DNA from: a virus
Direction: 5' to 3' (one strand)
DNA: 28,110 nt
UHGV virus genome: UHGV-0095852
Below, piece after piece: positions 222 through 17,485 of this stretch. The notes beneath the pieces were generated by a model, which saw only the letters and a program-made list of their open reading frames with translations, was not told where the DNA came from and made no database searches. The number at the start of each line of letters is the position of its first letter. Position 1 is the stretch's first letter. A program made the position numbers and the translations under genes.

Positions 222-706
222 ATGCGGCACTCTCTCCGCCCGTCACCGCTCTGTCTCGGTTGTCGCGTTTGCCACGCCAGCCGTAACGAGGTTTAAAGTC
301 TTTGCACGTTTCCATCACTCGACTGCCGTCTGTGGCTGTTCGTTGCAGCGGGGGTGCCTCCCCCTGGGGATATCCCCGGCCTTACCCCATTCTTTCAAGA
401 CACAATGCAAGGCCGCATCCGCATAGGTGCATTACCGCAACATTAAGGAGACTTAGGGCAAAAGGTAATCGCCACAAAAAAATCCCTATGCCTCCTTAAT
501 GTTGAGGATGTGCATTGATGATGATTCGATGCGGCGAGTCCCGTTACTCTCTGCCGGACCATCATCAATGAACATCTTAAAAAGACCTTCCGTGGCTCAA
601 CATGTCTTGTTGTTTACTCCGTAAAGTGCTCTCTCTGAAACCACTTTACGCACTAAACCTGCTGAACTTTGGCTTGCTCGGTGCCAAAGCGAGCCCCTGT
701 ATGCAT

Positions 707-727
707 GTAATTTTCTAACACTTTAAT
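707..727 (+). promoter_or_regulatory. operator-like motif, copy 1 (core TTTTCTAACA)
   Basis: Intergenic; shares the (A)TTTTCTAAC core with five other intergenic copies. Confidence 0.3.
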
Positions 728-859
728 TTGTTATTTGCTGGTGGGCGAACAACAACCAATAAGTGACTATCAAGCCCAGCAAGCGAAATGTGGCAACGCT
801 CCACCAGCAAGGAAAATTCTAAGTTAAGTTACTCTCACAATCAATATGTTCGTTTAATG

Positions 860-880
860 AAATTAGATTTCTAACATATT
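860..880 (+). promoter_or_regulatory. operator-like motif, copy 2 (AAATTAGATTTCTAACATATT)
   Basis: 20 of 21 identical to copy 3; abuts the stop codon of the 879-2099 gene. Confidence 0.4.
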
Positions 881-2099
881 ATTTCCCATAAAGATCTTCT
901 ACGCCCCCATTCTTCTTGTCCCATTCGTTAGCCCACACCCGGCAGGCATCAATAATTTCTTGACGACGGTCGCCCTGCATAAAGGGGATGCTTTCATGAA
1001 AACTACTTGGGATACAGGCCACGCTGAATACGGTATCAAACGCAGTCTGTTTGATAGCTTCCAACGTCTCTGGGCGCATTTTCAATTCATCGATCGGCGC
1101 ATCCTTAGAGTCCATAATCCGGCGATGCAGGCGCGGGAAATCAGTCTCCAGGTACGCCATAATTTTATCTGCCAGGCATTCGTCTATATCGGTATTCCAG
1201 TCCGTTTCGAAGCCGGGCAGGCGATAGTAAAGCGGCGTTCCCCATACTGATGGGATCACATCCATCGTCAGCAGGCGGTTGGTTCTAATTTGTTGATGGT
1301 AATTAGCCGTCAACAGAGCTTCACCACGCTGACCAGTCTCCGCAACCAGACCATGCGGGTACTCATGGATATAGGCAATAGCATCCACCCCGTCATACAT
1401 GAGCGGGAATGTCTCTGGCCTTTGTCCCATACCACAAGCGCGGTTCAGATCATGACCAAGCTGTGAGCACTCTCGTTTCAGCGTTTCAATAATGTTCTGC
1501 GCTGCTGCTAACTTTTTACGCAGTGTGACGCCTTCGCCTTGATACTTAATGCATTGCTGATTCAGCTCTGTTAAACGCTCTTTTAGTTCCCGACGCTCTC
1601 TTTTCAGCGCACGGTTATCCTTCTCCGCAACATCCAGTCGTTTTGACAGACTGGCTGGATAGTCTTTTTTGTAACGACTCAAATCGGCTTCTGCGGATTT
1701 GCGCAGTGTGTTTGCCTGTTCAAGACGCGCTTCCAGATTGCCGATCTCACTACGCATATTCGCGGCAAATTGATTAACAGCATTGCCAAGACTTTCAACT
1801 GTCGCTGATACGCCTGTGACTTGTGAAAAACGGATCAAGCCATCATTAACGGCTTGTTGATATTCCTCAAACTGATCCACCAGCTTGTTGTAATCAACCG
1901 TCCCTTCCTCAAGTAGCTGGTTGATCTCCGCGACCAGGTTATCAGTAGTGGCAATGACGCTCTCATGTAGCCGTCTGGACAGGTCATCCCCCGGATTCCG
2001 CTTTTGAATAAGGGCGATCTGTGTCCGCAGCGTTTCAATCGCGGCTGAGATGATTTCCAGATTAGAAGTATCAGTTTGTTGACTCATTGCAGTTCCCAT
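879..2099 (-). CDS. hypothetical protein, 406 aa; N-terminal about 230 aa coiled-coil-like (heptad-rich, E/K/R/L/Q rich), uncharacterised C-terminal domain
   Basis: Long uninterrupted ORF; own regulatory motif upstream and bidirectional terminator further upstream; no family recognised by eye. Confidence 0.6.
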   Translation of the reverse strand: MGTAMSQQTDTSNLEIISAAIETLRTQIALIQKRNPGDDLSRRLHESVIATTDNLVAEINQLLEEGTVDYNKLVDQFEEYQQAVNDGLIRFSQVTGVSATVESLGNAVNQFAANMRSEIGNLEARLEQANTLRKSAEADLSRYKKDYPASLSKRLDVAEKDNRALKRERRELKERLTELNQQCIKYQGEGVTLRKKLAAAQNIIETLKRECSQLGHDLNRACGMGQRPETFPLMYDGVDAIAYIHEYPHGLVAETGQRGEALLTANYHQQIRTNRLLTMDVIPSVWGTPLYYRLPGFETDWNTDIDECLADKIMAYLETDFPRLHRRIMDSKDAPIDELKMRPETLEAIKQTAFDTVFSVACIPSSFHESIPFMQGDRRQEIIDACRVWANEWDKKNGGVEDLYGK

Positions 2100-2112
2100 T
2101 GTTTTTTTTGCA

Positions 2113-2133
2113 AAATTAGTTTTCTAACATATT
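2113..2133 (+). promoter_or_regulatory. operator-like motif, copy 3 (AAATTAGTTTTCTAACATATT)
   Basis: Sits 14-34 bp upstream of the start codon of the 879-2099 gene; contains TTAG-N4-CTAA dyad. Confidence 0.4.
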
Positions 2134-2171
2134 TTATTAGTATGAGGACAAGAGCGAAAGATGTGATAAAC

Positions 2172-2198
2172 AAAAAACCCGCTAATCGGCGGGTTTTT
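2172..2198 (-). terminator. rho-independent terminator (bidirectional), stem ACCCGC/GCGGGT, 6-nt loop, A-run and T-run flanks
   Basis: Hairpin 2177-2194 with T tract on the minus-strand reading; separates the small-ORF operon from the 406-aa gene. Confidence 0.6.
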
Positions 2199-2204
2199 GA
2201 GCGG

Positions 2205-2519
2205 TTATTGTGTCATTGCCTGGTAGATAAAATACACGATGCATACCGGTACGATAGCCCATTGCAGCAATGAAAGCAGCCTCATGGCTGTCATGGGAGT
2301 AACTCCGTCTACGTATTCCTTCTCTGACATTTTCCCTAACCAACTAACCGACAAAAGGGTCGAGTTCTCCCCCATTTCCAGCTCCCTGAGGGCTTCCCGG
2401 ATTAAAGGCGCTGTTACCACCTTGCGGGCAGTGTTGAGCGTAATGCTCCGCGTCCTCCCGGCGTCATCGGCAAACGCCAGGTTCACATGATATTTTTTGC
2501 TCAATGTACAAACTCCCAA
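2205..2519 (-). CDS. small hypothetical protein with hydrophobic C-terminal segment; true start may be internal (Met49 has an AGGGAG RBS)
   Basis: ORF begins at TTG; C-terminal LLSLLQWAIVPVCIVYFIY looks transmembrane; preferred over the antisense plus-strand ORF because the terminator is oriented for minus-strand transcripts. Confidence 0.3.
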   Translation of the reverse strand: MGVCTLSKKYHVNLAFADDAGRTRSITLNTARKVVTAPLIREALRELEMGENSTLLSVSWLGKMSEKEYVDGVTPMTAMRLLSLLQWAIVPVCIVYFIYQAMTQ

Positions 2520-2701
2520 TCATCAGCGCCTGTACTTTCCGGGGTAATGTGAACCTTATCACCAGTGACAATATTCCGAGCCTCTATTGTTCCATTGTTG
2601 TGTTTCAACAACTCAACACACAATGGTTGCTGCCAGGAACGACGGCGAGCAACAACGTTAGCACCAGCAGGGATAAGTTCAGCCACGTTAAGTAAACGCA
2701 A
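2501..2701 (-). CDS. small hypothetical protein, 66 aa
   Basis: TTG start preceded by GGAG at about 9 nt; lies directly downstream of the nuclease gene. Confidence 0.3.
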   Translation of the reverse strand: MRLLNVAELIPAGANVVARRRSWQQPLCVELLKHNNGTIEARNIVTGDKVHITPESTGADDWEFVH

Positions 2702-2715
2702 AACGATTTCTCCGT

Positions 2716-3207
2716 TTAATCAAGACAAACATATTCCGTGATAGCTTTTATGGCTTCAGCGGCACTGCGCGCCTCAAAGCAGTAGTAACCTGCTTCGGTG
2801 AGGCGAGTCATCCAGACGAGTTGTTCGGGAGTCAGGCGATTTCTCCCATGTTTCATCTCAATGCGCATTCCGTGGTATCCCCCACAAGCAAGGTCTATAG
2901 AAAGATCGGGATATCCCTTCTTTTGGCCCTCTGCCACCATTTTTATTGCCGTCCTTATGCCTCGCAGACCGCCGTTTGGAGTGGCGTGTGTATGCTCATA
3001 CACATAGCGCATATTGCGATACAACCAATCCAGGACGCGTACCTGCTCGTAATGCTCATGGTTCCTTTTGATTAGATCTGGGTTTTTCTCCAGTTCTCTG
3101 AGAGCTGCGGCATGTGGGGATGTTTCAGAATATTCACTGCGACGCCTTCTTTTTCTCGCTATTTTTCTAACACACCCATTGATAGTAAATAAGCGAAATA
3201 ATAACAA
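2716..3207 (-). CDS. VRR-NUC-like (PD-(D/E)xK) nuclease; start uncertain, probably downstream of 3207
   Basis: GYPDLSIDL ... IEMK motif pattern typical of VRR-NUC; operator-like motif copy 4 lies inside the N-terminal extension, so the real start is probably later. Confidence 0.55.
   Translation of the reverse strand: MLLFRLFTINGCVRKIARKRRRRSEYSETSPHAAALRELEKNPDLIKRNHEHYEQVRVLDWLYRNMRYVYEHTHATPNGGLRGIRTAIKMVAEGQKKGYPDLSIDLACGGYHGMRIEMKHGRNRLTPEQLVWMTRLTEAGYYCFEARSAAEAIKAITEYVCLD
3158..3175 (+). promoter_or_regulatory. operator-like motif, copy 4 (TATTTTTCTAACAC)
   Basis: Same core as copies 1-3; positioned in the presumptive 5' region of the nuclease gene. Confidence 0.3.
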
Positions 3208-3346
3208 CTGCGTTAGATTTGTAAAACAAGAGAGATACTACTCAAGGCTGGGCTATATGCAACAGGTCGGATTTGCTTTTAGAGTAAAAAGTGACCTTAA
3301 TCAACAAGGAGGGTAAATCGCATGGCATTTACCCAACTTGTTATTT

Positions 3347-3607
3347 TTAAAGGTTTATTTTATCCGGTTCGGATATTTCTGTGATTGTCTTGTCGATTGC
3401 GATCAACCACCCTTCATAGGTTAAATCATCAACAAGCTCTACCAGTTTGTCTTCTGTATGAGGGAAGTATACCCAGCTCCAGCTCGCTGGGTTTTCTGCT
3501 TTTCGCAGCGTAAAAACCTTCTTGTAACGGTGAAACTCAAGGACATACCCCTTCGATATGGAATATTCCTTTAGGTCTTCGACCGTAAACCTACGATTCT
3601 TTCGCAT
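3347..3607 (-). CDS. hypothetical protein, 86 aa
   Basis: ATG start 2 nt after the stop of the upstream gene; GGGG run 8 nt upstream. Confidence 0.5.
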   Translation of the reverse strand: MRKNRRFTVEDLKEYSISKGYVLEFHRYKKVFTLRKAENPASWSWVYFPHTEDKLVELVDDLTYEGWLIAIDKTITEISEPDKINL

Positions 3608-3609
3608 GG

Positions 3610-4044
3610 CTACCCCATGATTCGATATTTCTCTATTGACTCGTCGTAACTTGTGTACACGTATGGCTCTGTATCATCAGCATAAGGTGCGACTTCCAGA
3701 GCATGAACGGGATTGTATACCGCGTCATTTTCCAGGCGATCGCTCGAATACAGATGCCCAGCCAAAACCGTAAGCGCCGGGCGACTCATTTTGTAGATCT
3801 CTGCCACATCACTATCTACAACTTGTCCAAATGATATGTCGCCGCGCTCCAGCAATATCGTTTTGAGCGCGGGCCACCACGGACCATAAAGGTGATAAAG
3901 CTGTGGATTTTTCTTCAGTCTTTCTACCATGCCATCAAGATAAACTGTCAGGTATTCTTCTTCACTCCTGCCATTGAGTGCCTGCGGCAAGATTTCCTCA
4001 AGGTAGGATTCCGTCGGTTTTACAGTGTCAATTAGTGTCGTCAT
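3610..4044 (-). CDS. hypothetical protein, 144 aa, immediately downstream of the DarB-like gene
   Basis: ORF with ATG start; position corresponds to the gene co-transcribed with darB in P1 (ulx) by recollection of synteny only. Confidence 0.5.
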   Translation of the reverse strand: MTTLIDTVKPTESYLEEILPQALNGRSEEEYLTVYLDGMVERLKKNPQLYHLYGPWWPALKTILLERGDISFGQVVDSDVAEIYKMSRPALTVLAGHLYSSDRLENDAVYNPVHALEVAPYADDTEPYVYTSYDESIEKYRIMG

Positions 4045-4051
4045 TCAAATT

Positions 4052-4069
4052 CGGCCCCGGTTGGGGCCG
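4052..4069 (-). terminator. GC-rich stem-loop (CGGCCCC-GGTT-GGGGCCG) just after the darB-like stop; weak U-tract
   Basis: Perfect 7-bp stem read directly; follows stop codon at 4081. Confidence 0.35.
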
Positions 4070-4080
4070 CTCCTTATCTG

Positions 4081-7000
4081 TTAGGCCGCATCGGCGATTA
4101 TTTTACGCAGTTCATCTACCGAGTAACGAGTAGATACCATCCACGCCGGACGGTCAAAGTTCACATCAGCAACCGGGTTTGCTTCAAAATTCCAGAAACG
4201 CCCGCCAATCTTCTTAATCGCGTCTTTGGCGTTCCGTATTGTCGAGGAACCTGGCTGGTCGGCAATGAGATAAACCGCGCCAACGTCTTCGCTGACGCTC
4301 CACCAGCGCCCGCGAACACGCGCCTTAGCGCGAATCGGCTTATCATTAACCACAATGATATAGTCATCATTCGCCGCTTCATCAGCTCTGGCTTCAGCCA
4401 CTGCCGCCTGCTCTTCTCTTTTGCTTTCAGCCTGCTCAAGCCTTTCCGCGATCTCTGATTCAGTGGCCCCGCCGTTTTTCAGCGATACATAGTCCTGCCA
4501 CGTTGCCGATTTGAGCGCATCCGGCAACTCATTCACATAGTCGCCGTCTTTCAACTCACGGGCGCGACGGGTGGCCATTTCTACCAGGCGATTAACAGAA
4601 ACAGCATCAGCAAAATCGTCCTTACTAATGTGTTTTTCATCAAATGCATTGATGACAGCCCCCACCTTAATCCACTGCGCTGCTGGCGAATCCAGAGGAT
4701 TATCGGCCTGAACAATGGCTAATTTCGCTCCATCGACACCATTATTAGCCAGCTGCTCCAATGCCGACCAGCCATCGGCATCGCTGAGTGATTTATATTG
4801 CTCAAACAATGCATCGCGCCAGGCCACCAGCGCAGCTCGTGTTTTCTCAATTTTCGCCGTAATTTTCGCGGCCTTCACCTGATTAAACATCCGTTCAATG
4901 TCATCAGTGTTGCTAAAGGCTTTCATCCTGCCCTGGAATAAACGGTATGCCACCACGGTCTTCCAGAAAGATTCCAGCCCTTCTCCGGACGGTTTACGGA
5001 ACAGGCTAAGAATATCTTCAGAAGTAACTTTATTAAGTGAGCGACCGGACAAACCACGCCCTGCCATCCAGTTTTCAAACTCCTGGGAAACATCATCCAT
5101 CGTGGCCTGTGACCCCCATGCCTGCATTCCCTGGATGTAATCATATCCATACAATGCCTGGAGGAATCCCTCGCCGTCCACGACATTCAGCGGGTTATCA
5201 CTGGCTTGTATTTTTGCCACTTCACGCTTCAGCGCCTCGTCGTTGCCATCAGGATATATCCATCGCTCAGGTGCTATATCCGATGCTCGCCCGATTTTTT
5301 GGCCTATCACGCCATCATAGGTCGATGACAGCGCGATCTGACCATCATCTGTGCGATAAGCCCAGTATTTAATAGCTGAACCACCGCCCCATACTCTACC
5401 AGGCTTCCCGGCAGTGACATTCATTACCCCATTGCGAATAGCATCATAGAACTGATCGCGCGTAAGTGTTGTTGATAGCTGGTGGCATTGAACACCACGT
5501 GCAGCTGTTTCACGCGATTCTGCAACTCCCTCTTCAAAGGTTACCGATTCAATTATCAGGTTAAAGGGCAAAAATAATGCCGTCCCCGGAGAACGAGAGT
5601 AACGACTAGCCACATCCAGCCAGGATATGCGGCACGTACACCCGCCCCTTTCCGCATCAATGGCGGTAACACGAACAATTGCTGTCGTATTGTGATTCTC
5701 ATCGATGATCGCGCGATAATGGCTGCCCTTGTGCAACAAGATATTTTTCTCAGTGCGTACATACTCCTGTGGGTTCTGCAATACATCGGCATCAAGCTCC
5801 AGAACCCCGGCTTTAATCGCACGTTCCAGATCACCACGAGAACGTTTCATAACGGTGTCAGCGTCTTTAGCTCTGGTGATCGCAAAGCGTAGCTCCCGCA
5901 CACGTTTTCTGTAGTCTCGCAACTGTTCCAGAACATATTTCTGCCCGTTCCTGTTCGTCCCCGCTTTAATCAGGTCGTCAAGATTGCGCTGGTAATGCTC
6001 TACCTGCTCCATCGCGCTTTTCAGTTCTGTCTCCATCATGCCGATATCTTTCCCGGCAGCATTCGCCGCTTTCAGGTAGTTATCGAGAGCATTATTGGCT
6101 TCGCGTAGGGCTTTCAGTTTCAGACGTTCTTCACGCTCTTGCGCCTGACGACTCATGATTGCACGGCGTTCTTCCGGATTTGCCGCCAGCATAATGGCGC
6201 GTTCATCTGCGTCATCCGCATCACCATTGGCGATCTCTGACATGTCTGAGGTCATCACCATATTGATCCAGTCCTTCTTACGTTTCAGCGTATCCAGACG
6301 GAAGTCATCAAATGTGCCTTTGCCACAATAGTAGTGAACATTGACCTTTTCTTGTGGTGAGCCTACCCGAGCGCCGCGCCCATTACGTTGGTCGATACTG
6401 GCAGGAGTCCAGGGTAGTGTCAGATGGTGGATATCGGTTGTACCGATGTGCAAGTTAATACCTACTTCAGCCTTCTTGTTACAGATTATGATGCGCGTGC
6501 GACCTTCGTTATAGTCGGCGGCAATACCTTCCATGCCCTCAAGGCCAGCATCATTTTTAGCTGAGAGATAATCCTCATATTGGGCAAGTTTGCTGTAGTA
6601 GGTTTCCCATGCACCTTCTTTGTATTCACCGTTTTTATTTGGCGTAGGTTCAGTCGGCTTATTCACCTTCTTCAGCTTGACGCCGCCAGCCTGGCTAACT
6701 GTCGTCGCATTGATAATGCCTATCTCCTGCTCCGGCATTTGCAGTGCACTGGCAATAATACGGCGCAGCTTCTGGTGCTGGGCTTTTTCATCAATGAAGA
6801 CGATTTGTTTACCGTTCTTCAGACCTTCACGAAGGTTTTCGATCAGCGCGGCATACTTCGGCGGGATGGGGTGTGATACCTGCTGCATATCAATACCGGC
6901 AGCCGCAATGGCCTTCAGTATTTCAGCTTCCAGTTCAATGCCAGCACGTATTTCAACATGCGACGGATGTTCGCTAAAGGTGGTCTTCACTACCTTGCTG

Positions 7001-10000: not shown

Positions 10001-10920
10001 AGGAAGGTATCCCAAAGGACGTTTGCCGACTTGAGCGTTGCATCATCCGTGTCGGGGATCATCTCCAGGAAGGTTTCCGGGTGTTTACGCAATACCCATA
10101 CGTCCACCACTGTATCTGTACCGGATTCGCTGAACGTACCAGAAGGCATACGATGTGCGCCCAAAAATTCCGCTTTACGGCTGACTTTATCGCGCAATTT
10201 TTTGTATTTCGTACCATCGGTCATGCCATTCGGCACCACCAATACAATTAGTCCACCAGGCTTAACCTTGTCGATCGTGCGCAGCACAAAGTAATTGCCA
10301 ACGTTCTTCTCGTTTGCATATGCCGGATCAAGCCCGGCAACGCCGGAACGCCCTTCACCAAACGGTACGTTACCAACAGCGTGGTCATACATTGCGTCTT
10401 TCGCCGCCAGCGCCTCAAACGCCCCGATATTCACATCGTCTTCCGGGTGCAAAAGCTGGTTTATTCGACCGGAAATCGGAGATAGTTCGGCGCTGGTCAT
10501 TATCATGCCCTGCCGTTTTGTCTCCTGGAAAATACCTGTGCCCGCTGATGGTTCCAGTACGTGCCCGCCATCAATACCGTAGTCAGCAAACAGATCCCAT
10601 ATACCTTCAGCCATAAACTGTGGTGTGTAGTATTCGTATTGGCTGCCCTCACCATCTGTCAGGCCGCCTTCACCGGTATACCCGGCAAGAATCTGACGTT
10701 GTTCGTCAGTTAATTTCGCCCCATCGAAGCCGGGCGGAAGGGAATTAAGAAGCTCTACTGCGGCGTTGTTTGCTGCCCGCCGTGTTTTTTGAATGCTGAC
10801 ACCATCGACTTTCTTAACGCCAAAGGTCGCAACAGCACGTAATTTATGCAACCGACTAACAATTTCAATCAGTTCGCCTAAGCTGGAGGCTTCACTGATT
10901 GAATGAAGTAGTTTATCCAA
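4081..10920 (-). CDS. darB: DarB-like antirestriction protein: N-terminal N6-adenine methyltransferase domain fused to SF2 helicase
   Basis: 2279-aa ORF; MTase motif I LEPSAGTGIF and motif IV GNVPFG; Walker A GFGTGLGKTT; DEGH box VIADEGH; helicase motif VI QRNGRGARVG; GAGGGGG RBS. Confidence 0.9.
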   Translation of the reverse strand: MDKLLHSISEASSLGELIEIVSRLHKLRAVATFGVKKVDGVSIQKTRRAANNAAVELLNSLPPGFDGAKLTDEQRQILAGYTGEGGLTDGEGSQYEYYTPQFMAEGIWDLFADYGIDGGHVLEPSAGTGIFQETKRQGMIMTSAELSPISGRINQLLHPEDDVNIGAFEALAAKDAMYDHAVGNVPFGEGRSGVAGLDPAYANEKNVGNYFVLRTIDKVKPGGLIVLVVPNGMTDGTKYKKLRDKVSRKAEFLGAHRMPSGTFSESGTDTVVDVWVLRKHPETFLEMIPDTDDATLKSANVLWDTFLKGKWFTTEGKRFVYGDMERTSFRNTLVVKKDGRVSNESMKTALSRRFESRINWDLLGVTTQAWQGAKVGDKRLVGGIWHEFDGLKWVKDATTKSSALDVNRYGVTTFGDLQIAFQSTNGILALSWDQISAIASDYPSVISDEVAAMIRFAGKQREKDRERVMRGALIGQLINKALDKRNLGENVDDELADAARLAEAEIAKYGPPHAIKLNGIAEAGAKNWMTFTGNVKQDGSASDLLAGRLDVTDGAAGIDFTRPEQVVTHLFSDVALNPITLDDFREAFAGELPGDDDAALEYLAKFDDIAIDGYGCLLPMDRATSGDIATKTALLVGWRDASTGEQKANFERQLAKIEEKRIFTPLNKVTVNLNARWLDRRLIKEFLAEQGYDEFKYTEPDLKVEDGILVSPDDYEGKDGVFTGYQLRTVNGKNGNEFKKANNKDGFLNQLENYLNGIKPRGQNANEYLDKIAQLEISFNDWLRTHPQADQIARDYNDAFNGFIPFTHSDAPLGLEGISGKRIPLTYQNEEVRRLSEDGRGIMGFGTGLGKTTTALALEAYNFETGRTKRTCIVVPKAVYQNWYHEAQSFYSADAFANMMFIGLDEVRDDSGNILTAPVLDENGEPRLDSNGQPLTRNVVKESASAVIVQRMNMIPSSNWRTVIMTKEQFASIPLREETIEENSQQAVFNAVEMGRLDLASGKHRDAQKKNKIKDQAANTGTTKKQNIPYFEDMNFDSVIADEGHNYRNSFSAGREAGQLAYLPNPAVSKMARDMAVKAAYMMKRNNGRGVVMLTATPLVNSPIDAFNMLSTVIPQEEWMRMGIVTPDDFVRVFGKTATVQVQKISGEVEEKQGLVGFQNLDGLRGIFHRWTTLKTAADVGATVKIPDIVENTLQIPMTGEQEAIYEELRKRAQELSSKDALTVDENGHITNEKPDDFIFSIIRDMDKVAIDPDLYASAITFQFPVELADKVKAIADALPKVAGGKVADDADEAEEDGAGGLVSTRTSKVVKTTFSEHPSHVEIRAGIELEAEILKAIAAAGIDMQQVSHPIPPKYAALIENLREGLKNGKQIVFIDEKAQHQKLRRIIASALQMPEQEIGIINATTVSQAGGVKLKKVNKPTEPTPNKNGEYKEGAWETYYSKLAQYEDYLSAKNDAGLEGMEGIAADYNEGRTRIIICNKKAEVGINLHIGTTDIHHLTLPWTPASIDQRNGRGARVGSPQEKVNVHYYCGKGTFDDFRLDTLKRKKDWINMVMTSDMSEIANGDADDADERAIMLAANPEERRAIMSRQAQEREERLKLKALREANNALDNYLKAANAAGKDIGMMETELKSAMEQVEHYQRNLDDLIKAGTNRNGQKYVLEQLRDYRKRVRELRFAITRAKDADTVMKRSRGDLERAIKAGVLELDADVLQNPQEYVRTEKNILLHKGSHYRAIIDENHNTTAIVRVTAIDAERGGCTCRISWLDVASRYSRSPGTALFLPFNLIIESVTFEEGVAESRETAARGVQCHQLSTTLTRDQFYDAIRNGVMNVTAGKPGRVWGGGSAIKYWAYRTDDGQIALSSTYDGVIGQKIGRASDIAPERWIYPDGNDEALKREVAKIQASDNPLNVVDGEGFLQALYGYDYIQGMQAWGSQATMDDVSQEFENWMAGRGLSGRSLNKVTSEDILSLFRKPSGEGLESFWKTVVAYRLFQGRMKAFSNTDDIERMFNQVKAAKITAKIEKTRAALVAWRDALFEQYKSLSDADGWSALEQLANNGVDGAKLAIVQADNPLDSPAAQWIKVGAVINAFDEKHISKDDFADAVSVNRLVEMATRRARELKDGDYVNELPDALKSATWQDYVSLKNGGATESEIAERLEQAESKREEQAAVAEARADEAANDDYIIVVNDKPIRAKARVRGRWWSVSEDVGAVYLIADQPGSSTIRNAKDAIKKIGGRFWNFEANPVADVNFDRPAWMVSTRYSVDELRKIIADAA

Positions 10921-10928
10921 AGGATTAC

Positions 10929-10973
10929 CCCCTCTAAACCGTAAAAAATCCGCTATGCGGTACGGTTGAGAGG
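10929..10973 (-). promoter_or_regulatory. inverted repeat (CCCTCTAAACCGTA / TACGGTTGAGAGGG) overlapping the darB-like ribosome binding site
   Basis: 14-bp arms with one mismatch and 17-nt loop; the arm proximal to the ATG contains the Shine-Dalgarno purines. Confidence 0.3.
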
Positions 10974-11070
10974 GTATGGAGAATGTTATTTTCAGGGGGA
11001 CGATACTACCGTCAAAATCACATACTCCCCATAGTTTGCCTACTTATTAACCCATGACCGGGAGAAAAAT

Positions 11071-11556
11071 ATGGCAAACATTGAACCTCGCTGGCTAATT
11101 GAAGCCCGTAAGCACATTGGCCTGACTGAAATAAAAGGCGCTAAACACAACCCTGAAATCGTTCAGTTCTGGCGCGACATCAAGCGCGGCGGAATTAAAG
11201 ACGATGAAACGCCGTGGTGCGCAGCATTTGTCGGTGCAATGCTGGAACGTGTAGGCATCCGCTCAACAAGATTTGAGTCGGCAAAATCCTATCTGGATTG
11301 GGGCGAGAAATTAGATACACCGGCATACGGATGTATCGTTGTATTTACCCGCGTAGGCGGTGGGCACGTAGGCTTCGTTGTCGGACGCCGCGCCAATGGC
11401 GATCTGCTTGTCCTGGGTGGGAACCAGGGGGATGCGGTTAATATTCGCGCATTCCCAACATCAAGAGTGTCTGGCTATCGCTGGCCTGCTGGCGAACCAC
11501 GCAATACCGCTCTGTTACCAGTCGGAGACGCAGCAACCTCAACTAATGAGGCATGA
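11071..11556 (+). CDS. putative cell-wall peptidase, NlpC/P60 or CHAP-like papain fold
   Basis: Conserved Cys (ETPWCAAFV) and His (GGGHVGFVV) in the spacing typical of this fold; GGGAG RBS 7 nt before ATG. Confidence 0.65.
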   Translation: MANIEPRWLIEARKHIGLTEIKGAKHNPEIVQFWRDIKRGGIKDDETPWCAAFVGAMLERVGIRSTRFESAKSYLDWGEKLDTPAYGCIVVFTRVGGGHVGFVVGRRANGDLLVLGGNQGDAVNIRAFPTSRVSGYRWPAGEPRNTALLPVGDAATSTNEA

Positions 11557-11580
11557 AAAAAGCCCCGGCCAGGCCGGGGC
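11555..11580 (-). terminator. rho-independent terminator for the minus-strand antirepressor operon, shared with the convergent peptidase gene
   Basis: Stem GCCCCGG/CCGGGGC followed by T6 on the minus-strand reading. Confidence 0.6.
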
Positions 11581-11588
11581 ATCACGCA

Positions 11589-11789
11589 TCAAGTCACGAT
11601 CCAATCATTACCGACTATATCAGCCGTCGATAAATAAACTTCCCGGATCTGGAGTCCATTAATACAAAACCATCCGGTAGTAGAGTAATTATCAGGCCAG
11701 GCCCATACACCAACACTCCATGCTTTACGGCGGCACACTTCAGCCTGTTCTTCCCTGATTTTTTTTACCGCCTGCATGATGTCCATCAT
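11589..11789 (-). CDS. small hypothetical protein, 66 aa, translationally coupled to the upstream Rha-like gene
   Basis: Start overlaps the Rha-like stop; GGAGG RBS inside the 3' end of the upstream gene. Confidence 0.45.
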   Translation of the reverse strand: MMDIMQAVKKIREEQAEVCRRKAWSVGVWAWPDNYSTTGWFCINGLQIREVYLSTADIVGNDWIVT

Positions 11790-12493
11790 TCACCTCCCCA
11801 ACCGATCACCTGGAATTGCCCCATTTTGGGGTGATACCAGCGTTTTCCTCGGTGTTCAGCCTCCGACATCATCCGGTTAAAAGCATTCATGAAGGGAGAT
11901 AAGGCCACGATGGAACGACGCGACAATACCCCCTCTGGAGTTAAAAACTCATGTGTATCGGTGGGAATCCGGTAAGCGTTAACCAGGTTGCGACATTTGG
12001 CTTCAGTCAGGCCACATTTCGCCGCCAGCTGTCGGTAGCCAATGTAGCCTTCCGGAATATTGCCTTTCTTGATTTGCTCGACGGTTTCAGCGACCTGGCT
12101 AACCTTTGACTCAACAGCATGAAGCCGCTTTTGCTGCTGAACTGCATTTGCAGCCATTGCGGCGATCATCTCTATTTCGGTCAACGGCTGGCGTACTTGT
12201 TCTTCCAGTTCGCGCCAGCGGTCCACCAGCCGGGCGGTGAATTCGGGAGAGAGCTGCGCGACGACGATAATGCTATCGCGCTTGCCTTGCTCGCCTTCGA
12301 AGACGTAAGCCTCAACACTACGCCGTAGTCCTAAGTTATTGATTTTTTCGAAAACCTCAATTTGAGGACGAGCAATAACGCCACCTTTGGCTAATGTCTC
12401 AATAGTGCGTTTCACATTGTCATGACGTTTTCCCACCAGCTCCGCGATCTCAATGCTGGTCATTGATGGCTTTTCGAGAATGCAGATATCCAT
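11786..12493 (-). CDS. Rha-family phage regulatory protein (antirepressor-like)
   Basis: N-terminal MTSIEIAELVGKRHDNVKRTIETL matches the characteristic Rha N-terminal motif; GGAGG RBS 7 nt before ATG. Confidence 0.75.
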   Translation of the reverse strand: MDICILEKPSMTSIEIAELVGKRHDNVKRTIETLAKGGVIARPQIEVFEKINNLGLRRSVEAYVFEGEQGKRDSIIVVAQLSPEFTARLVDRWRELEEQVRQPLTEIEMIAAMAANAVQQQKRLHAVESKVSQVAETVEQIKKGNIPEGYIGYRQLAAKCGLTEAKCRNLVNAYRIPTDTHEFLTPEGVLSRRSIVALSPFMNAFNRMMSEAEHRGKRWYHPKMGQFQVIGWGGE

Positions 12494-12717
12494 CAGTGAG
12501 CCTCCGCAATGCCGGGATTGGTAATATTGCGATACCAGGGATTGGTGTTTGGTTGTGGGGAAGTAGAGAAACGACCAGTGAGAACGCCATACTGATCAGG
12601 GATCAGAGAACGGGCTTCTTTTTCAGTTGCGGCAATTGCGAAGTGATCGCAGTGTTTTTGCAGGGAGTGAAAACGCCAGATGAATTCTGGACGTGAGCAA
12701 GGATTGGCATTAACCAT
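12493..12717 (-). CDS. small protein, 74 aa, overlapping the start of the antirepressor gene (icd-like position)
   Basis: ATG start with GAGG 8 nt upstream; stop overlaps the Rha-like ATG. Confidence 0.45.
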   Translation of the reverse strand: MVNANPCSRPEFIWRFHSLQKHCDHFAIAATEKEARSLIPDQYGVLTGRFSTSPQPNTNPWYRNITNPGIAEAH

Positions 12718-13046
12718 AGTTACGGCCTCACTAACAGGTTTAACAACCTGCTACCCGCTGTCAAACAGGTGGCAGGACGTGACAGGGTTGACAGACTGGC
12801 GTTAGTGAAACCAGCAGGCCTAAGCCTCCCCATCACGCCCCACCATAATTCGGGCGTAACGCGGTTTACGGACACAAAAATACCGCAATATCGGAAATCT
12901 GCGGTTGTCCGCACTAACATTCAGGCTGTCAAACCTGGTCGCAGAATTTGCTACGACGGCATGAATATAAGCCTGAAAACATGGAAGATCAACTAAAAAT
13001 TTCAGCAATGGATGACTTCAGTCGATGATGCAGATCATACATTCCG

Positions 13047-13080
13047 ATTTAGAAACAGCAAATTAATTTTCTAATACAAA
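13047..13080 (+). promoter_or_regulatory. operator-like motif, copy 5, composite dyad (ATTTAGAAA ... TTTTCTAAT)
   Basis: Two inverted half-sites 12 bp apart, upstream of the immunity-like operon. Confidence 0.4.
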
Positions 13081-13130
13081 TCATCGAGAGAACATTTTCC
13101 GATCATTGGGATGTTTTGTAGACACACAGG

Positions 13131-14093
13131 TCATCCCCTAAATCCCGCAGGGATTGACCAATCCTCCCGGTCAAATTCAGACCGATAGCCACGCTGTTTC
13201 ATCAGGTCAAAGGCTTCACCAATGGTTGCACACCCCTGGGAGCCAGAATAATCCATTGAGAAATCCAGGGCACTGGATTGTTTAGGCTTATTCACTGCGG
13301 TAGCGGCACTACGTATCCATGCAAATTTTTTTGCCAGCTTTTCAGCGGTACGATACAGAGCCTGCCGTTTTGCGTGCCCCTCGTCTGAACGACGCTTTGC
13401 AGCTCTCGCTTTTGCCGCCGCCAGGCAGTGGTTGGTATGTTCTTCCCTGATTACTGGTTTTTTATCCAGTAATCCATTATCCGCTTGGGAACTATCTGCT
13501 GGTGAAGCCTTTGGCTGAACCGCGCATGATCTTTCTCTTCTTTTGGCTATAGAGTGACTCTTATTTTCTATTGGCTGTTCATTTTGAACATGGGGGGACT
13601 TGTTCAATTTGAACAGGGGGTTCCCAGTTTCAAAAAAATACCGAACCTTTGAAATCAACTGCTTAACCAGTTTTGTGGCGTTCGCAAATTTGATGCCCTG
13701 CTTACCCCCTATCTCCATTGCTACATGAATGAAGTGGAGAAATTGTGTTGTAAACCGGTATACGTTACACACCTGAGCATTGTTATTCGCTACCTGATGT
13801 TGCTTAACAAGCATTCCGCACTTCGTCGCTTCAGCAAATGCCCGGCGCACAGTAGAAATACTGCGTCCTGTAATCTCGGACATATCAGCATATGAGCGAC
13901 GGATCATGTATTCATCGGTAGCTCCTGCCAGGTTGGCGAACTCGGCAATAATGGCGCTATGTGAAGGGGAAAGAAAACCGCTATGACGAGCAAAAAAACT
14001 CAACTGATGACCTTTGATTTTTTTGTGGTATTCAGTGTTGTTTTTATACTCAGAAGTGTTGAAAGTTACTGAAACTGAATTTAAAATACTCAT
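13131..14093 (-). CDS. hypothetical HTH protein, 320 aa; possible RepL-like lytic replication protein with internal origin-like repeats
   Basis: HTH-like segment ISTVRRAFAEATKCGMLV; dense direct and inverted repeats inside the coding sequence at 13509-13656. Confidence 0.55.
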   Translation of the reverse strand: MSILNSVSVTFNTSEYKNNTEYHKKIKGHQLSFFARHSGFLSPSHSAIIAEFANLAGATDEYMIRRSYADMSEITGRSISTVRRAFAEATKCGMLVKQHQVANNNAQVCNVYRFTTQFLHFIHVAMEIGGKQGIKFANATKLVKQLISKVRYFFETGNPLFKLNKSPHVQNEQPIENKSHSIAKRRERSCAVQPKASPADSSQADNGLLDKKPVIREEHTNHCLAAAKARAAKRRSDEGHAKRQALYRTAEKLAKKFAWIRSAATAVNKPKQSSALDFSMDYSGSQGCATIGEAFDLMKQRGYRSEFDREDWSIPAGFRG

Positions 14094-14150
14094 CAGATAG
14101 TACCGTGAAAAATCTATCTACCGTATAAATCTATGTCCGGAGATTTATAC

Positions 14151-14189
14151 ACCCAAAAGCCGCTTCTCAGCGGCTTTTGCTTTTTTCGG
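14151..14189. terminator. rho-independent terminator, stem GCCGCT/AGCGGC, with TTTTGCTTTTTT on the plus side and TTTT on the minus side
   Basis: Hairpin 14159-14174 read directly; lies between the protease-like gene and the 320-aa gene. Confidence 0.5.
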
Positions 14190-14261
14190 CAGTCGCTACC
14201 GGAGCAGTGACCGCGATCCTACTCGATCACATCGGACAGGATCAACAGTGTATATAAATAC

Positions 14262-14283
14262 ACTATGTTAGAAATTTAACTTC
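14262..14283 (-). promoter_or_regulatory. operator-like motif, copy 6 (minus-strand reading GAAGTTAAATTTCTAACATAGT), overlapping palindrome AGTGTAT-ATAA-ATACACT
   Basis: Same TTTCTAACA core in the opposite orientation; intergenic. Confidence 0.35.
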
Positions 14284-14292
14284 ATGCAGCGG

Positions 14293-15291
14293 TTATGCCC
14301 GTCGCGAAACGAAGAGTAATGGGGTAGTATTTTTGCTATCCTTCGGCGATAACTCCGGCTCTTTCTTGCCTGATATCGGCAAGCCATAAGTCGCATTTGC
14401 CCCCAGAGATTCAAGCATCGCAGCCACTATGCGAGCATCATCTTCAGACTGCATACGGCAGAGCGCCCGACGCTGTTCTGCGCTGATAAAAACAGGCATT
14501 TCCTGGATAGCGTCACGCAAAATCCGACGGCATTGCTTTGCATTTTCCCCCTGGCTTTCCATCATCGCTGTTTGAGCGCGCAGCTTATCTCGAAGCTGTA
14601 TGTTTTCCACTTCAAGGAGCATCAATTCTGATTCCAGGGCTTCACGATGTGCAGATTCGAGCATGGCTTGCTGATTTTTCATTGCTGAAAAGTGGTGAAC
14701 CAGATCCGTAGCAGCGTTATCGGTAAAACCTTGTTCGATAAGTGCTGCATGAATAGCCGCATCGCGCTCTTCTGCTGATTCAAGCATCAGGCTTTTCTTG
14801 TCGAGGCTGATATAGTTAGGCACAGTTACGTAATCAAAGCCGTGGAAAGACTTTACCAGGGATACCGATGAATCTGGACCAGATGTAGCCCACGACCAAC
14901 CACCAGCACCAGAATTAATCATGCCCTGAACAATACGCCCGGTGTCTGTATCCAGTATTTCCTGCGTATGGGTAACAATGCCGTTGTCGTCAATCGAAAT
15001 GTCGATAGTCCTGTTGGATGGCACGTTCTCCAATACAACAGGCTTCCCATCTACCATCACAACAGAGACTTCCGGCAAGTTCAGGCTTTTCGTTTTGTTA
15101 TAGTGCATCGCCCGGCGACCATGACCGTAATAACCATACATCTCACCCAGCGCGATACGCTCTTTTGTTTCTGGCGAGTTGAATGTGTCTCGTACCGACT
15201 GAATGACGTAATTTCGGTTGTTCTGCGGTGTGTGTTTGCGGATTTTCTCTACCAGGGAGAAGCGATCCGTAACAGTATTCAGTGATTGCAT
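14293..15291 (-). CDS. putative prohead protease or scaffold protein (Pro-like)
   Basis: Placed directly after the portal-like gene; His- and Ser-containing N-terminal half and coiled-coil C-terminal half; assignment by context. Confidence 0.5.
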   Translation of the reverse strand: MQSLNTVTDRFSLVEKIRKHTPQNNRNYVIQSVRDTFNSPETKERIALGEMYGYYGHGRRAMHYNKTKSLNLPEVSVVMVDGKPVVLENVPSNRTIDISIDDNGIVTHTQEILDTDTGRIVQGMINSGAGGWSWATSGPDSSVSLVKSFHGFDYVTVPNYISLDKKSLMLESAEERDAAIHAALIEQGFTDNAATDLVHHFSAMKNQQAMLESAHREALESELMLLEVENIQLRDKLRAQTAMMESQGENAKQCRRILRDAIQEMPVFISAEQRRALCRMQSEDDARIVAAMLESLGANATYGLPISGKKEPELSPKDSKNTTPLLFVSRRA

Positions 15292-15304
15292 TATTTCCCT
15301 CCGG

Positions 15305-17473: not shown

Positions 17474-17485
17474 ATCGATTCAACG

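What the first reader, a model, noticed from the sequence alone, without database searches (positions are those of the whole stretch)
707..14283. Recurrent intergenic operator-like motif (ATTTTCTAACA core) at six module boundaries
Seen in sequence: copies at 707-727, 860-880, 2113-2133, 3158-3175, 13047-13080 (composite dyad) and 14262-14283 (opposite orientation); copies 2 and 3 agree at 20 of 21 positions and contain TTAG-N4-CTAA. All are intergenic or in presumptive 5' regions. Established knowledge: P1 C1 repressor acts through many dispersed asymmetric 17-bp operators (consensus recalled as ATTGCTCTAATAAATTT). Inference: the motif here matches that consensus at roughly 10-12 of 17 positions, so these may be operators of a C1-family repressor with altered specificity, or alternatively late-promoter activator boxes. 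A related sequence (TTTCTAG) sits upstream of the portal-like gene (17057-17072) and of the holin-like gene (24948-24958).
Basis: partly seen in the sequence, partly recalled or inferred. Interest (0 to 1): 0.5.

Follow-up and report, generated by a model that had tools for sequence, protein, structure and literature searches.

The report
Operators for a C1-type prophage repressor
A 19-base DNA word repeated at the heads of six gene blocks in this P1-like plasmid-prophage is very probably the docking site of the phage's own master repressor: the counterpart of the classic C1 operators of phage P1, but with a different sequence, which is a tidy result rather than a surprising one.

Summary
The six copies exist and are far more frequent than chance. 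They belong to a 19-nt asymmetric motif, AAaTTArTTTTCTAACAyA. The motif has 17 strong copies in the whole parent element, a D6-like P1-family phage-plasmid that is 99.9% identical to pMTY1586.

Outside the window the motif lies just upstream of the c1-like repressor gene, lpa, ref and rdgC/hrdC. Inside the window it lies upstream of the tRNA/ban-like operon (copies 1 and 2), pmgS (3), pmgM (4), the c4-icd immunity operon (5) and repL (6). Phage P1 carries annotated C1 operators at all of these positions.

The element encodes a distant C1 homologue (20% identity, same PHROG and Pfam family). It has no P1-type operators, and P1 has none of this type.

At two loci the DNA downstream is more than 90% identical to P1, yet the operator-bearing control region has been replaced. 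The core is invariant in relatives down to 69% identity.

The late-promoter alternative is rejected, because late genes carry a different box (AAATCACA-N7-TAnnnT). The two extra "TTTCTAG" sites are not related to the motif.

Verdict: operators of a heteroimmune C1-family repressor, a new member of a known kind. Binding has not been tested, and I could not read the phage D6 genome paper to check for prior description.

The parts
704..722 (+). Copy 1. Operator-like site CATGTAATTTTCTAACACT, about 90 nt downstream of the conserved minus-strand promoter of the tRNA/ban-like unit.
   Evidence: PWM score 21.6 bits, leave-one-out 15.7. The core and its 3' flank CTTTAATTTGTTA are invariant in relatives down to 69% identity and in L016.
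860..878 (+). Copy 2. Operator-like site AAATTAGATTTCTAACATA. It abuts the pmgS stop codon and lies 16 nt upstream of the -35 of the minus-strand promoter.
   Evidence: PWM score 28.5 bits. The core is invariant in six relatives. pEC361 has a second, inverted copy next to it that abuts the -35.
816..844 (-). Sigma-70-like promoter TTGATT-17-TAGAAT, bracketed by copies 2 and 1. It is the presumed start of a unit of about 700 nt that ends at the terminator at 123-106 and leads towards the tRNA genes.
   Evidence: Promoter scan. Both hexamers are conserved in all relatives, and L016 has TTGATT-17-TACAAT. DNA from window 126 onward is 92.5% identical to P1 68855-69841, the ban-operon leader with trnA and trnT. 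The tRNAs lie on this strand just outside the window.
2113..2131 (+). Copy 3. Operator-like site AAATTAGTTTTCTAACATA, between the pmgR terminator (2198-2173, minus strand) and the pmgS start (2099 or 2090).
   Evidence: PWM score 30.4 bits. A 33-nt block (2113-2144) is invariant while both flanks diverge. It is the only conserved block in the pmgS upstream gap.
3156..3174 (+). Copy 4. A weaker site TCGCTATTTTTCTAACACA at the 5' end of the pmgM-like gene, about 25 nt downstream of a predicted minus-strand promoter (3225-3198).
   Evidence: PWM score 17.0 bits, leave-one-out 7.1. TTTCTAACAC is invariant in six relatives while the neighbouring codons vary. Promoter scan.
13060..13078 (+). Copy 5. 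Operator-like site AAATTAATTTTCTAATACA upstream of the c4-icd-antirepressor (immI) operon and 53 nt downstream of the repL stop codon.
   Evidence: PWM score 28.3 bits. The D6 equivalent scores 31.0. It lies about 90 nt upstream of the Rfam c4-a1b1 element, much as P1 Oc4 lies about 100 nt upstream of a1.
13047..13055 (-). Degenerate inverted core TTTCTAAAT, the 'dyad' partner of copy 5.
   Evidence: It aligns column for column with P1 Oc4 but has no positive PWM score in register. It is at best a very weak second site.
14264..14282 (-). Copy 6. Operator-like site AAGTTAAATTTCTAACATA, 171 nt upstream of repL and pointing the same way as repL.
   Evidence: PWM score 27.0 bits. D6 has AAATTAAATTGCTAACATA at the same place, 22.9 bits. 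It is the counterpart of P1 OrepL/Op53.
12765..12970 (-). C4 antisense RNA (12765-12850) and its a1/b1 targets (12918-12970). This is the immI unit that copy 5 would control.
   Evidence: Rfam RF01695 at 68.2 bits and RF03163 at 54.4 bits, both above the gathering scores. The region is near-identical to P1 from the P51b -35 onward.
13131..14093 (-). repL-like lytic replication gene, flanked by copies 6 and 5.
   Evidence: 29% identity to P1 RepL, E = 1e-28. Annotated as lytic replication protein in D6 and pMTY1586.
879..2099 (-). pmgS-like gene (putative scaffold), downstream of copy 3.
   Evidence: Full-length match to P1 PmgS, 20% identity, E = 6e-14. D6 annotation.
2716..3207 (-). pmgM-like VRR-NUC gene. 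Copy 4 lies in its 5' end.
   Evidence: 57% identity to P1 PmgM over 136 residues, E = 9e-48, starting at residue 28 of this ORF.

Best explanation
The motif is the operator of the element's own C1-family repressor. That repressor is a 345-residue protein encoded 6.4-7.4 kb beyond the left end of the window.

In the plasmid-prophage state the repressor binds each asymmetric 19-bp site, AAaTTArTTTTCTAACAyA. That the sites are asymmetric is shown. That the protein binds as a monomer, as P1 C1 does, is inferred.

Binding would keep these units silent:
- repL lytic replication (copy 6);
- the c4-icd-antirepressor operon (copy 5);
- pmgS (copy 3);
- the pmgM-pmgR operon (copy 4);
- the leader and tRNA operon that corresponds to the P1 ban operon (copies 1 and 2, which bracket a conserved promoter).

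Outside the window the same sites sit at lpa, c1 itself, ref, rdgC/hrdC and other genes. When the repressor is lost or inactivated these units are expressed. Lpa then switches on the late genes through a different promoter box.

The specificity differs from P1. The two share the core TCTAAyA but differ on either side of it, so the element should be heteroimmune to P1.

Shown here: the sites, their statistics, their conservation, their positions and the presence of the homologous repressor gene. Inferred: that this protein binds them, and that binding represses.
For: 1. Regulon match. In the parent plasmid and in D6, strong sites lie as follows:
- 12 nt upstream of the c1-like start codon;
- 77 nt upstream of lpa;
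- between ref and the divergent early operon;
- directly upstream of rdgC/hrdC;
- between ppp and pdcB.
P1 has annotated C1 operators at c1/coi, lpa, ref, dmt (the uhr-hrdC-dmt operon), ppp, pmgR, gene 26/pmgL, ban, c4 and repL.

2. Each window copy has a P1 operator at the matching place in the gene order. Copy 5 matches Oc4, copy 6 matches OrepL, copy 3 matches OpmgRa/b, copy 4 matches O26, and copies 1 and 2 match Obanab. Gene homologies are confirmed.

3. Control-region replacement. At immI the window is near-identical to P1 from the P51b -35 onward, and 88-98% identical to many P1-type plasmids over query positions 1-278. Upstream of that point, P1 and an IncY P1-like plasmid carry AATGCTCTAATAAATTT, while the window and D6 carry this motif. 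In the ban leader, 92.5% identity to P1 begins only downstream of copies 1 and 2.

4. Cognate protein. The c1-like protein is 20% identical to P1 C1 (E = 6e-8). Both match phrog_1678 over their full length. Its homologues carry Pfam PF27008, Phage_P7_repressor_C1.

5. Mutual exclusivity. The P1-operator PWM gives at most 12.9 bits anywhere in the element or in D6, against 19.6-28.3 for the annotated P1 operators. The D6-type PWM gives at most 10.6 bits in the second half of P1.

6. Architecture like P1. There are about 17-19 dispersed asymmetric sites per 91-93 kb. They include two overlapping inverted pairs, at ppp|pdcB and at rdgC, conserved in both genomes. P1 C1 is reported to bind 22 dispersed operators and to control RepL and Lpa (PMC8546580).

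7. Footprints. The core is invariant in relatives at 93, 89, 81, 72 and 69% identity while the flanks diverge. The exact 9-mer occurs 4-5 times per 3 kb against 0.02-0.06 expected.

8. A relative whose C1 is only 53% identical keeps sites at c1, lpa, pmgS, pmgM and the tRNA leader. Their 5' half is changed, and the pmgS site is inverted. This points to a DNA-level, orientation-independent protein site whose sequence drifts along with the repressor.
Against: - There are no binding or expression data.
- The repressor gene is not in the window.
- Its repressor role rests on 20% identity to P1 C1, on family membership and on the word 'repressor' in database names.
- The sites do not overlap a recognisable -35 or -10 in a consistent way. 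Copy 2 is upstream of the -35, copy 1 is about 90 nt downstream of the start, and copy 4 is about 20-35 nt downstream of a predicted start and inside the longest ORF.
- Five of the six window copies read antiparallel to the operon they would control. Most sites elsewhere in the element point the same way as the downstream gene. I have no explanation for this.
- The spacing between copies 1 and 2 in relatives (125-163 nt) is not helically phased, so a simple loop model is not supported.
- Copy 4 is weak, and so to a lesser degree is copy 1.
Confidence: 0.85

Rival explanations
1. The sites are late-promoter boxes recognised by the Lpa activator with host RNA polymerase.
For: Copies 2, 3 and 6 are followed by TAnnnT hexamers (TATTAT, TATTTT, TAGTGT). 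Some copies contain the short dyad TTAG-N4-CTAA, loosely like the 9-bp dyad of P1 late promoters.
Against: P1 late promoters carry ACAAGTGACTT-N4-TAnnnT. Late operons of this lineage (prt, ddrB, R, pmgB, capsid gene 23, gene 7, mat, orf16) carry AAATCACA-N7-yAnnnT about 40-60 nt upstream of the start codon. Window examples are at 11015, 17039 and 21158. The motif instead sits at c1, lpa itself, ref, repL and immI, which are early or immunity genes. The TAnnnT hexamers of copies 2 and 3 point away from the adjacent genes. The dyad is absent in most copies and in the L016 lineage.
Confidence: 0.03
2. The sites bind a regulator other than the C1 homologue. Candidates are the small XRE/Hxr-like protein of the element or a host nucleoid protein.
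For: Nothing here ties the sites physically to the C1-like protein. The element encodes other helix-turn-helix proteins, for example an XRE-family gene at about window 17587-17751. The motif is AT-rich.
Against: The distribution copies the P1 C1 regulon site by site, including a site 12 nt from the c1-like start codon, which would give autoregulation. The core resembles the P1 C1 operator core. The 5' half changes in a lineage whose C1 is 53% identical. The motif does not fit the IHF consensus. It has about 25 bits of information, far more than nucleoid-protein sites have.
Confidence: 0.08
3. The motif is a shared promoter element or an RNA-level signal of early transcripts, not a repressor site.
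For: Outside the window most sites point the same way as the downstream gene and lie 12-80 nt from its start. TTTCTA could serve as a weak -35, as TTGCTC does within P1 operators.
Against: Five window copies are antiparallel to their operons. The pmgS site is inverted in L016. Overlapping inverted pairs occur. No consistent partner hexamer lies at a fixed distance. The element encodes no RNA polymerase or sigma factor that would need a 19-nt promoter. An RNA signal would be strand-specific.
Confidence: 0.03
4. The copies are chance recurrences of an AT-rich word in AT-rich intergenic DNA.
For: The 8-mer core alone is expected about 7 times in 93 kb on both strands (my estimate from base composition). 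Intergenic DNA is AT-rich.
Against: 17 sites of at least 14 bits against 0.55 simulated. Conserved flanks outside the searched core. It is the top intergenic 8-mer, p = 1.4e-10. The core is invariant in diverged relatives.
Confidence: 0.01

Closest known systems
C1 operators of phages P1 and P7 (Op sites, consensus ATTGCTCTAATAAATTT)
   Same: Both are asymmetric sites of 17-19 bp, present in about 17-22 copies dispersed over a plasmid-prophage of about 90 kb. Both sit at c1, lpa, repL, c4/immI, ref, hrdC/dmt, ban/tRNA, pmgR-S and pmgL-M. Both include overlapping inverted pairs. They share the core TCTAAyA. The repressors belong to the same protein family.
   Different: The sequences outside the core differ. 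P1 has ATTGC 5' of the core and this motif has AAATTAGTT. The base after CTAA is T in P1 and C here. Neither PWM finds the other's sites. The repressor is 345 residues rather than 283 and only 20% identical. The inverted pairs are head-to-head with a 4-bp overlap, whereas P1 Obanab is tail-to-tail with a 6-bp overlap. P1 operators often supply the -35 (TTGCTC) of the promoter they control, and no such regular overlap is evident here. No Lxc or Coi homologue was looked for.
P1 Obanab/Pban control of the ban operon (dicF-like region, trnA, trnT, tciABC, ban)
   Same: Copies 1 and 2 plus the promoter at 844-816 precede a leader and tRNA genes whose DNA is 92.5% identical to P1 68855-69841.
   Different: The two sites bracket the promoter 156 nt apart instead of overlapping it. 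The first roughly 680 nt of the leader (window 809-126) has no counterpart in P1. No ban gene was seen in the stretch examined.
P1 late promoters (Lpa-dependent, -22 box AAGTGACTT plus a -10)
   Same: Both are short conserved boxes in intergenic DNA of the same phage family. Some copies have a small dyad followed by a TAnnnT hexamer.
   Different: The sequence, the gene class and the orientation logic all differ. The lineage has its own late box, AAATCACA-N7-yAnnnT.
Lambdoid CI/Cro operators
   Same: Both are repressor binding sites that define the immunity specificity of a temperate phage.
   Different: Lambdoid operators are dyad-symmetric, clustered at two control regions and bound by dimers. 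These sites are asymmetric and scattered over the whole genome. This comparison rests on established knowledge and was not tested here.

Membership tests
P1-type C1 repressor/operator system | Asymmetric operator of about 17 bp without overall dyad symmetry | tested here: met
   The information profile covers 19 nt. The right half (TTCTAACA) is far more conserved than the left. TTAG-N4-CTAA is present in only 6 of 15 sites and is absent in L016.
P1-type C1 repressor/operator system | Many copies dispersed over the genome rather than one or two control regions | tested here: met
   17 sites of at least 14 bits in the parent element and 18-19 of at least 12 bits in D6, spread over the whole circle. 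P1 has 17 of at least 12 bits in its second half alone, and 22 are reported in total (PMC8546580).
P1-type C1 repressor/operator system | Sites at the promoters of c1, lpa, repL, c4/immI, ref, dmt/hrdC, ban and pmg genes | tested here: met
   Site-by-site correspondence with the P1 annotation.
P1-type C1 repressor/operator system | A C1-family repressor is encoded by the same element | tested here: met
   phrog_1678 matched over the full length by both proteins. Pfam PF27008 Phage_P7_repressor_C1 on the homologues. BLASTP gives 20% identity, E = 6e-8. NCBIfam phage_rep_C1 gives only 23 bits against a cut-off of 500, so the protein is not an equivalog.
P1-type C1 repressor/operator system | Operators match the P1/P7 consensus ATTGCTCTAATAAATTT (same immunity specificity) | tested here: not met
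   The best P1-PWM score in the element is 12.9 bits, against 19.6-28.3 for the annotated P1 operators. Only the core TCTAAyA is shared. This is therefore a different specificity within the family, not P1 or P7 immunity.
P1-type C1 repressor/operator system | The repressor binds the sites and represses the adjacent promoters | not testable with these tools
   This needs EMSA or footprinting, ChIP, or reporter assays.
P1-type late promoters (Lpa-dependent) | A 9-bp box AAGTnACTT centred near -22, a 4-nt spacer, then a TAnnnT -10 | tested here: not met
   Alignment of six annotated P1 late promoters. The motif shares no such box.
P1-type late promoters (Lpa-dependent) | Located upstream of late (morphogenesis and lysis) operons | tested here: not met
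   Late operons carry AAATCACA-N7-yAnnnT instead. The motif sits at early and immunity genes, including lpa itself.

The most novel reading that the evidence does not exclude
The C1 family uses a modular recognition code, and operator-bearing control regions are exchanged as cassettes.

The code would be an invariant core (TCTAAyA) shared by P1-type and D6-type operators, plus a lineage-specific 5' half: ATTGC in P1, AAATTAG in D6 and this element, AATCTAT in a relative whose C1 is 53% identical. That 5' half would co-vary with the repressor.

The cassette exchange would explain the junctions seen at immI and at the ban/tRNA leader, where the regulated genes stay more than 90% identical between heteroimmune phage-plasmids while the control region is replaced.

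If so, these natural swaps give a ready-made map for working out how a monomeric repressor with no solved structure reads DNA, and for predicting immunity groups of P1-like phage-plasmids from sequence.
Probability: 0.45. Interest if true: 0.45.

Novelty: new member of a known kind. Interest (0 to 1): 0.3.

Why it matters
D6-like phage-plasmids are common in E. coli, Salmonella and Shigella. More than 100 complete plasmids in PLSDB carry this region.

Knowing the operator sequence lets the C1-controlled regulon and the immunity group be read directly from sequence. It also explains why these elements can coexist with P1-type plasmids. It marks the early transcription units (repL, immI, lpa, the tRNA leader, pmgS, pmgM), which current annotations leave blank.

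The two junctions where P1-identical genes are joined to a different operator region are a clean natural example of a repressor and its operators moving together.

None of this overturns what is known about P1 regulation.

Tried and rejected
- **Late-promoter reading.** I extracted the six annotated P1 late promoters and derived the lineage's own late box. Both differ from the motif.
- **A plus-strand small RNA from copy 3 to the hairpin at 2173-2198.** The plus-strand T-run is lost in two relatives while the minus-strand T-run is invariant. The hairpin is therefore the pmgR terminator, not the end of a plus-strand RNA.
- **DNA looping between copies 1 and 2, judged by helical phasing.** The spacings are 156, 156, 156, 150, 163, 161 and 125 nt, which are not phased.
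- **The 'dyad partner' of copy 5 as a second operator.** It has no positive PWM score in register.
- **The TTTCTAG sequences at 17057 and 24948.** Their PWM scores are negative.
- **Known RNA families in window 1-900.** Nothing reached a gathering score.
- **Assigning a sigma-70 promoter to every copy.** Only three convincing minus-strand candidates were found, at 844-816, 3225-3198 and 12992-12964. None overlaps a copy in the regular way that P1 operators overlap their promoters.
- **Reading the D6 genome paper** (Gilcrease and Casjens 2018, PMC5800970) and the P1 genome paper (PMC523184). Neither is held here, so I cannot say whether the D6 operators have already been listed in print. The D6 GenBank record carries no operator features.
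- **Full-text search for the motif sequence.** It returned nothing relevant.

Full report
**What the window is.** Region 600-3400 is 88.9% identical to Escherichia phage D6, a P1-like plasmid prophage. Window 1-17200 is 99.9% identical to E. coli plasmid pMTY1586_untypable1 (NZ_CP135715, 93.1 kb). I treat that plasmid as the parent element. Window position x corresponds to record position 25458 - x, on the opposite strand.

The window genes on the minus strand are, in order: pmgS-like, pmgR-like, pmgM-like, ulx, darB, the immI genes (icd and a Roi/Rha-type antirepressor), repL, pro and prt. The dar and lysis genes and part of the tail-fibre segment follow. Homology to P1 proteins was checked for PmgS, RepL and PmgM.

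**The observation.** All six copies are present at the stated places. The 10-mer with up to one mismatch occurs 8 times against 2.26 expected, and no shuffle out of 100 reaches 8.

Aligning all copies in the window and the rest of the parent plasmid shows a 19-nt motif, AAaTTArTTTTCTAACAyA. Columns outside the word used to find the copies are themselves strongly conserved.

A position weight matrix gives 17 sites of at least 14 bits in the element, against 0.55 in Markov-2 simulations. Leave-one-out scores are 18 bits or more for 13 of the 15 seed sites.

An unbiased test in D6 ranks TTCTAACA first among all 8-mers for intergenic enrichment. Eleven of its 12 copies lie in the 10.2% of the genome that is intergenic, p = 1.4e-10.

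Copies 2, 3, 5 and 6 are strong (27-30 bits). Copy 1 is intermediate. Copy 4 keeps the core but not the 5' half.

The two extra TTTCTAG sequences and the dyad partner of copy 5 do not score as matches.

**Conservation.** In plasmids 93, 89, 81, 72 and 69% identical over this region, the core of copies 1-4 is invariant while the flanking DNA diverges. The exact 9-mer occurs 4-5 times in each 3-kb fragment against 0.02-0.06 expected. D6 has all six copies. Its repL copy reads TTGCTAACA.

**Where else the motif lies.** In the parent plasmid and in D6, strong sites lie:
- 12 nt upstream of the start codon of the c1-like gene;
- 77 nt upstream of lpa;
- between ref and the divergent early operon, and just after ref;
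- directly upstream of rdgC/hrdC, as an overlapping inverted pair;
- between ppp and pdcB, as another inverted pair;
- after the cre-like gene;
- between the capsid gene and orf52.

The P1 GenBank record annotates C1 operators at ref, mat, ssb, c4, repL, rlf, dmt (the uhr-hrdC-dmt operon), ban (a divalent operator), gene 26/pmgL, ppp, pmgR (two), pmgT and lpa. Three further strong P1-PWM sites lie upstream of P1 c1.

Every window copy therefore has a P1 operator at the matching place in the gene order:

| Window copy | P1 operator |
|---|---|
| 5 | Oc4 (Op51) |
| 6 | OrepL (Op53) |
| 3 | OpmgRa/b |
| 4 | O26, upstream of pmgL-pmgM |
| 1 and 2 | Obanab |

**Two natural swaps.**

- **immI.** Rfam finds the C4 antisense RNA and its a1/b1 targets at 12765-12970 on the minus strand. 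From the -35 of the P51b-type promoter onward, the window is near-identical to P1 and to an IncY P1-like plasmid. Upstream of that point, P1 and the IncY plasmid carry AATGCTCTAATAAATTT (Oc4), while the window and D6 carry copy 5.

- **ban/tRNA leader.** Copies 2 and 1 bracket a minus-strand promoter, TTGATT-17-TAGAAT (844-816). Both hexamers are conserved in every relative, including one with a much diverged repressor. Downstream lie a minus-strand terminator (123-106) and, just outside the window, four tRNA genes on the same strand. From window 126 onward this DNA is 92.5% identical to P1 68855-69841, the ban-operon leader with trnA and trnT.

In both cases the regulated genes are shared with P1, but the operator-bearing control region matches the resident repressor type.

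**The repressor.** The element encodes a 345-residue protein at record positions 31847-32884. It is 90% identical to the D6 protein annotated 'prophage repressor, similar to P1 C1'. It is 20% identical to P1 C1 over 239 residues (E = 6e-8). Both proteins match phrog_1678 end to end. Its homologues carry Pfam PF27008, Phage_P7_repressor_C1. NCBIfam's C1 equivalog model gives only 23 bits against a cut-off of 500. It is a distant family member, not an orthologue with the same specificity.

**Specificity.** The best register between the two matrices aligns TCTAAyA. The consensus sequences agree at 9 of 14 overlapping positions. Copy 3 agrees with the P1 consensus at 12 of 17 positions by eye.

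The sets are nevertheless exclusive. The P1 matrix finds nothing above 12.9 bits in the element or in D6. The D6-type matrix finds nothing above 10.6 bits in the second half of P1.

**A more distant relative.** One contig (L016) has a C1 only 53% identical to the resident one. It keeps sites at c1, lpa, the tRNA leader (two sites), pmgS and pmgM. They have the same core, TTTTTCTAACA, but a different 5' half: AATCTAT instead of AAATTAG. The pmgS site is inverted relative to the window.

A site that keeps its place but flips strand is what one expects of a protein-binding site on DNA. It is not what one expects of a promoter element or an RNA signal.

**The late-promoter alternative.** Six annotated P1 late promoters align as ACAAGTGACTT-N4-TAnnnT. 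In D6 the second most intergenic-enriched word is TGTGATTT. Read in the direction of the genes it gives AAATCACA-N7-yAnnnT, 40-60 nt upstream of prt, ddrB, R, pmgB, the capsid gene, gene 7, mat and orf16. The window has three such boxes, upstream of the orf16-like gene, the portal gene and ddrB. The motif under study is therefore not the late box.

**How it most likely works.** By analogy with P1, C1 binds 22 dispersed operators and holds RepL and Lpa off (PMC8546580). The resident repressor would likewise occupy these sites in the prophage and block the early units listed above.

Shown here: the sites, their positions and the presence of the homologous protein. Inferred: binding and repression.

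The details of occlusion are not clear. Copy 3 is the only conserved block in the pmgS upstream gap. It may overlap a start site downstream of an invariant TAAAAT on the minus strand, but the -35 is poor. Copy 4 lies about 25 nt downstream of a predicted promoter. Copies 2 and 1 flank their promoter rather than overlap it. In pEC361 an extra inverted copy abuts the -35.

Five of the six window copies are antiparallel to the unit they would control. Most sites elsewhere point the same way as the downstream gene. I have no explanation for this. The inverted pmgS site in L016 suggests that orientation is not critical.

**Comparison and novelty.** Functionally and architecturally this is the P1 C1-operator system. 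It fails only the test of matching the P1 and P7 operator sequence, so it is a heteroimmune member of the same kind.

The D6 GenBank record has no operator features. A full-text search found nothing relevant. I could not read the D6 genome paper, so prior description cannot be excluded.

A P1 specialist would not be surprised. The useful additions are the operator consensus, the regulon map and the two swap junctions.

Noticed in passing
window 11015-11035 (+), 17019-17039 (-), 21138-21158 (-); D6 (L001/L003) sites: A lineage-specific late-promoter-like box, AAATCACA-N7-yAnnnT, lies 40-60 nt upstream of late genes: the orf16-like hydrolase, portal and ddrB in the window, and also R, pmgB, capsid, gene 7 and mat in D6. 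TGTGATTT is the third-ranked intergenic-enriched 8-mer in D6, the second distinct motif after the operator core, with 12 of 17 copies intergenic. It differs from the P1 box AAGTGACTT-N4-TAnnnT.
   Followed up: partly
window 24900-24919 (-): Upstream of the lydA holin gene the sequence is AAGTTAGTG-N5-TTAGAT. This resembles the P1-type late box (P1 LPdar is AAGTTACTT-N4-TACCAT) rather than the AAATCACA box used elsewhere in the element. The lysis module may have been acquired from a P1-type phage.
   Followed up: no
window 100-812 (-): There is an unannotated unit of about 700 nt between the conserved promoter (844-816) and a minus-strand terminator (123-106 plus T6). It has several long hairpins and no convincing ORF. 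The fold z-score is -2.8 for 560-812. No Rfam family reaches its threshold. It occupies the place of the P1 ban leader and dicF-like region. It may be a repressor-controlled non-coding RNA or a tRNA-operon leader.
   Followed up: partly
window 744-808: An inverted repeat, GCTGGTGGG ... CCCACCAGC, is invariant in six relatives while its roughly 45-nt interior varies. It lies just downstream of the predicted start of the 844-816 promoter. It is absent from the more distant relative L016.
   Followed up: partly
L001 (phage D6 MF356679) 7145-7850: The D6 GenBank record lists its three tRNA genes on the plus strand. ARAGORN places all three on the minus strand, the same strand as pmgS. This agrees with the parent plasmid, where four tRNAs (Arg-tct, Thr, Ser, Met-cat) follow the window on its minus strand. 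It is probably a strand error in the record.
   Followed up: yes
window 14059-14188 (+): A good plus-strand promoter, TTGAAA-17-TAAAAT (10 of 12 positions), lies inside the first codons of repL and points upstream. It is followed about 70 nt later by a strong terminator (14154-14179 plus a T-run). This would give a roughly 90-nt RNA antisense to the repL leader, like the P1 PaskilA (P53as) antisense transcript.
   Followed up: no
window 3259-3318 (+): A 19-codon plus-strand ORF (MQQVGFAFRVKSDLNQQGG) with a Shine-Dalgarno-like sequence lies between copy 4 and the orf13 terminator hairpin. Its length and ATGCAAC start are kept in six relatives, but many changes are non-synonymous. The conserved feature may be DNA or RNA rather than a peptide.
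   Followed up: no
window 3026-3207 (-): The start of the pmgM-like gene is uncertain. RefSeq starts it at 3026, which cuts off residues that align with P1 PmgM. D6 starts it at the equivalent of 3207 (TTG). A predicted promoter -10 (3203-3198) lies downstream of that TTG. Copy 4 falls in this disputed 5' stretch.
   Followed up: partly
window 12978-12995 and about 126: These are mosaic junctions with P1-type phage-plasmids. The c4/icd segment (12700-12977) is 88-98% identical to many IncY and P1-like plasmids. The leader and tRNA segment from 126 leftwards is 92.5% identical to P1. In both cases the neighbouring control regions are unrelated to P1.
   Followed up: yes
window 26000-28110: The tail-fibre end of the window is arranged differently from the otherwise 99.9% identical plasmid pMTY1586. 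There are multiple partial matches of 82-96% identity in both orientations, consistent with an invertible or shuffled tail-fibre segment next to the cin-like gene.
   Followed up: no
L016 (Logan SRR32291423 contig) 8418-19101: A D6-like relative whose C1 is 53% identical keeps the operator core TTTTTCTAACA but has AATCTAT in place of AAATTAG in the 5' half. Window copies 1 and 4, the weak ones, resemble this variant (CTATTTTTCTAACAC).
   Followed up: partly
window 3210-3228 (+): A degenerate motif copy, GCGTTAGATTTGTAAAACA (9.9 bits here, 12.1 in D6), overlaps the -35 of the predicted pmgM promoter, 36 nt from copy 4. It may be a weak auxiliary site.
   Followed up: no
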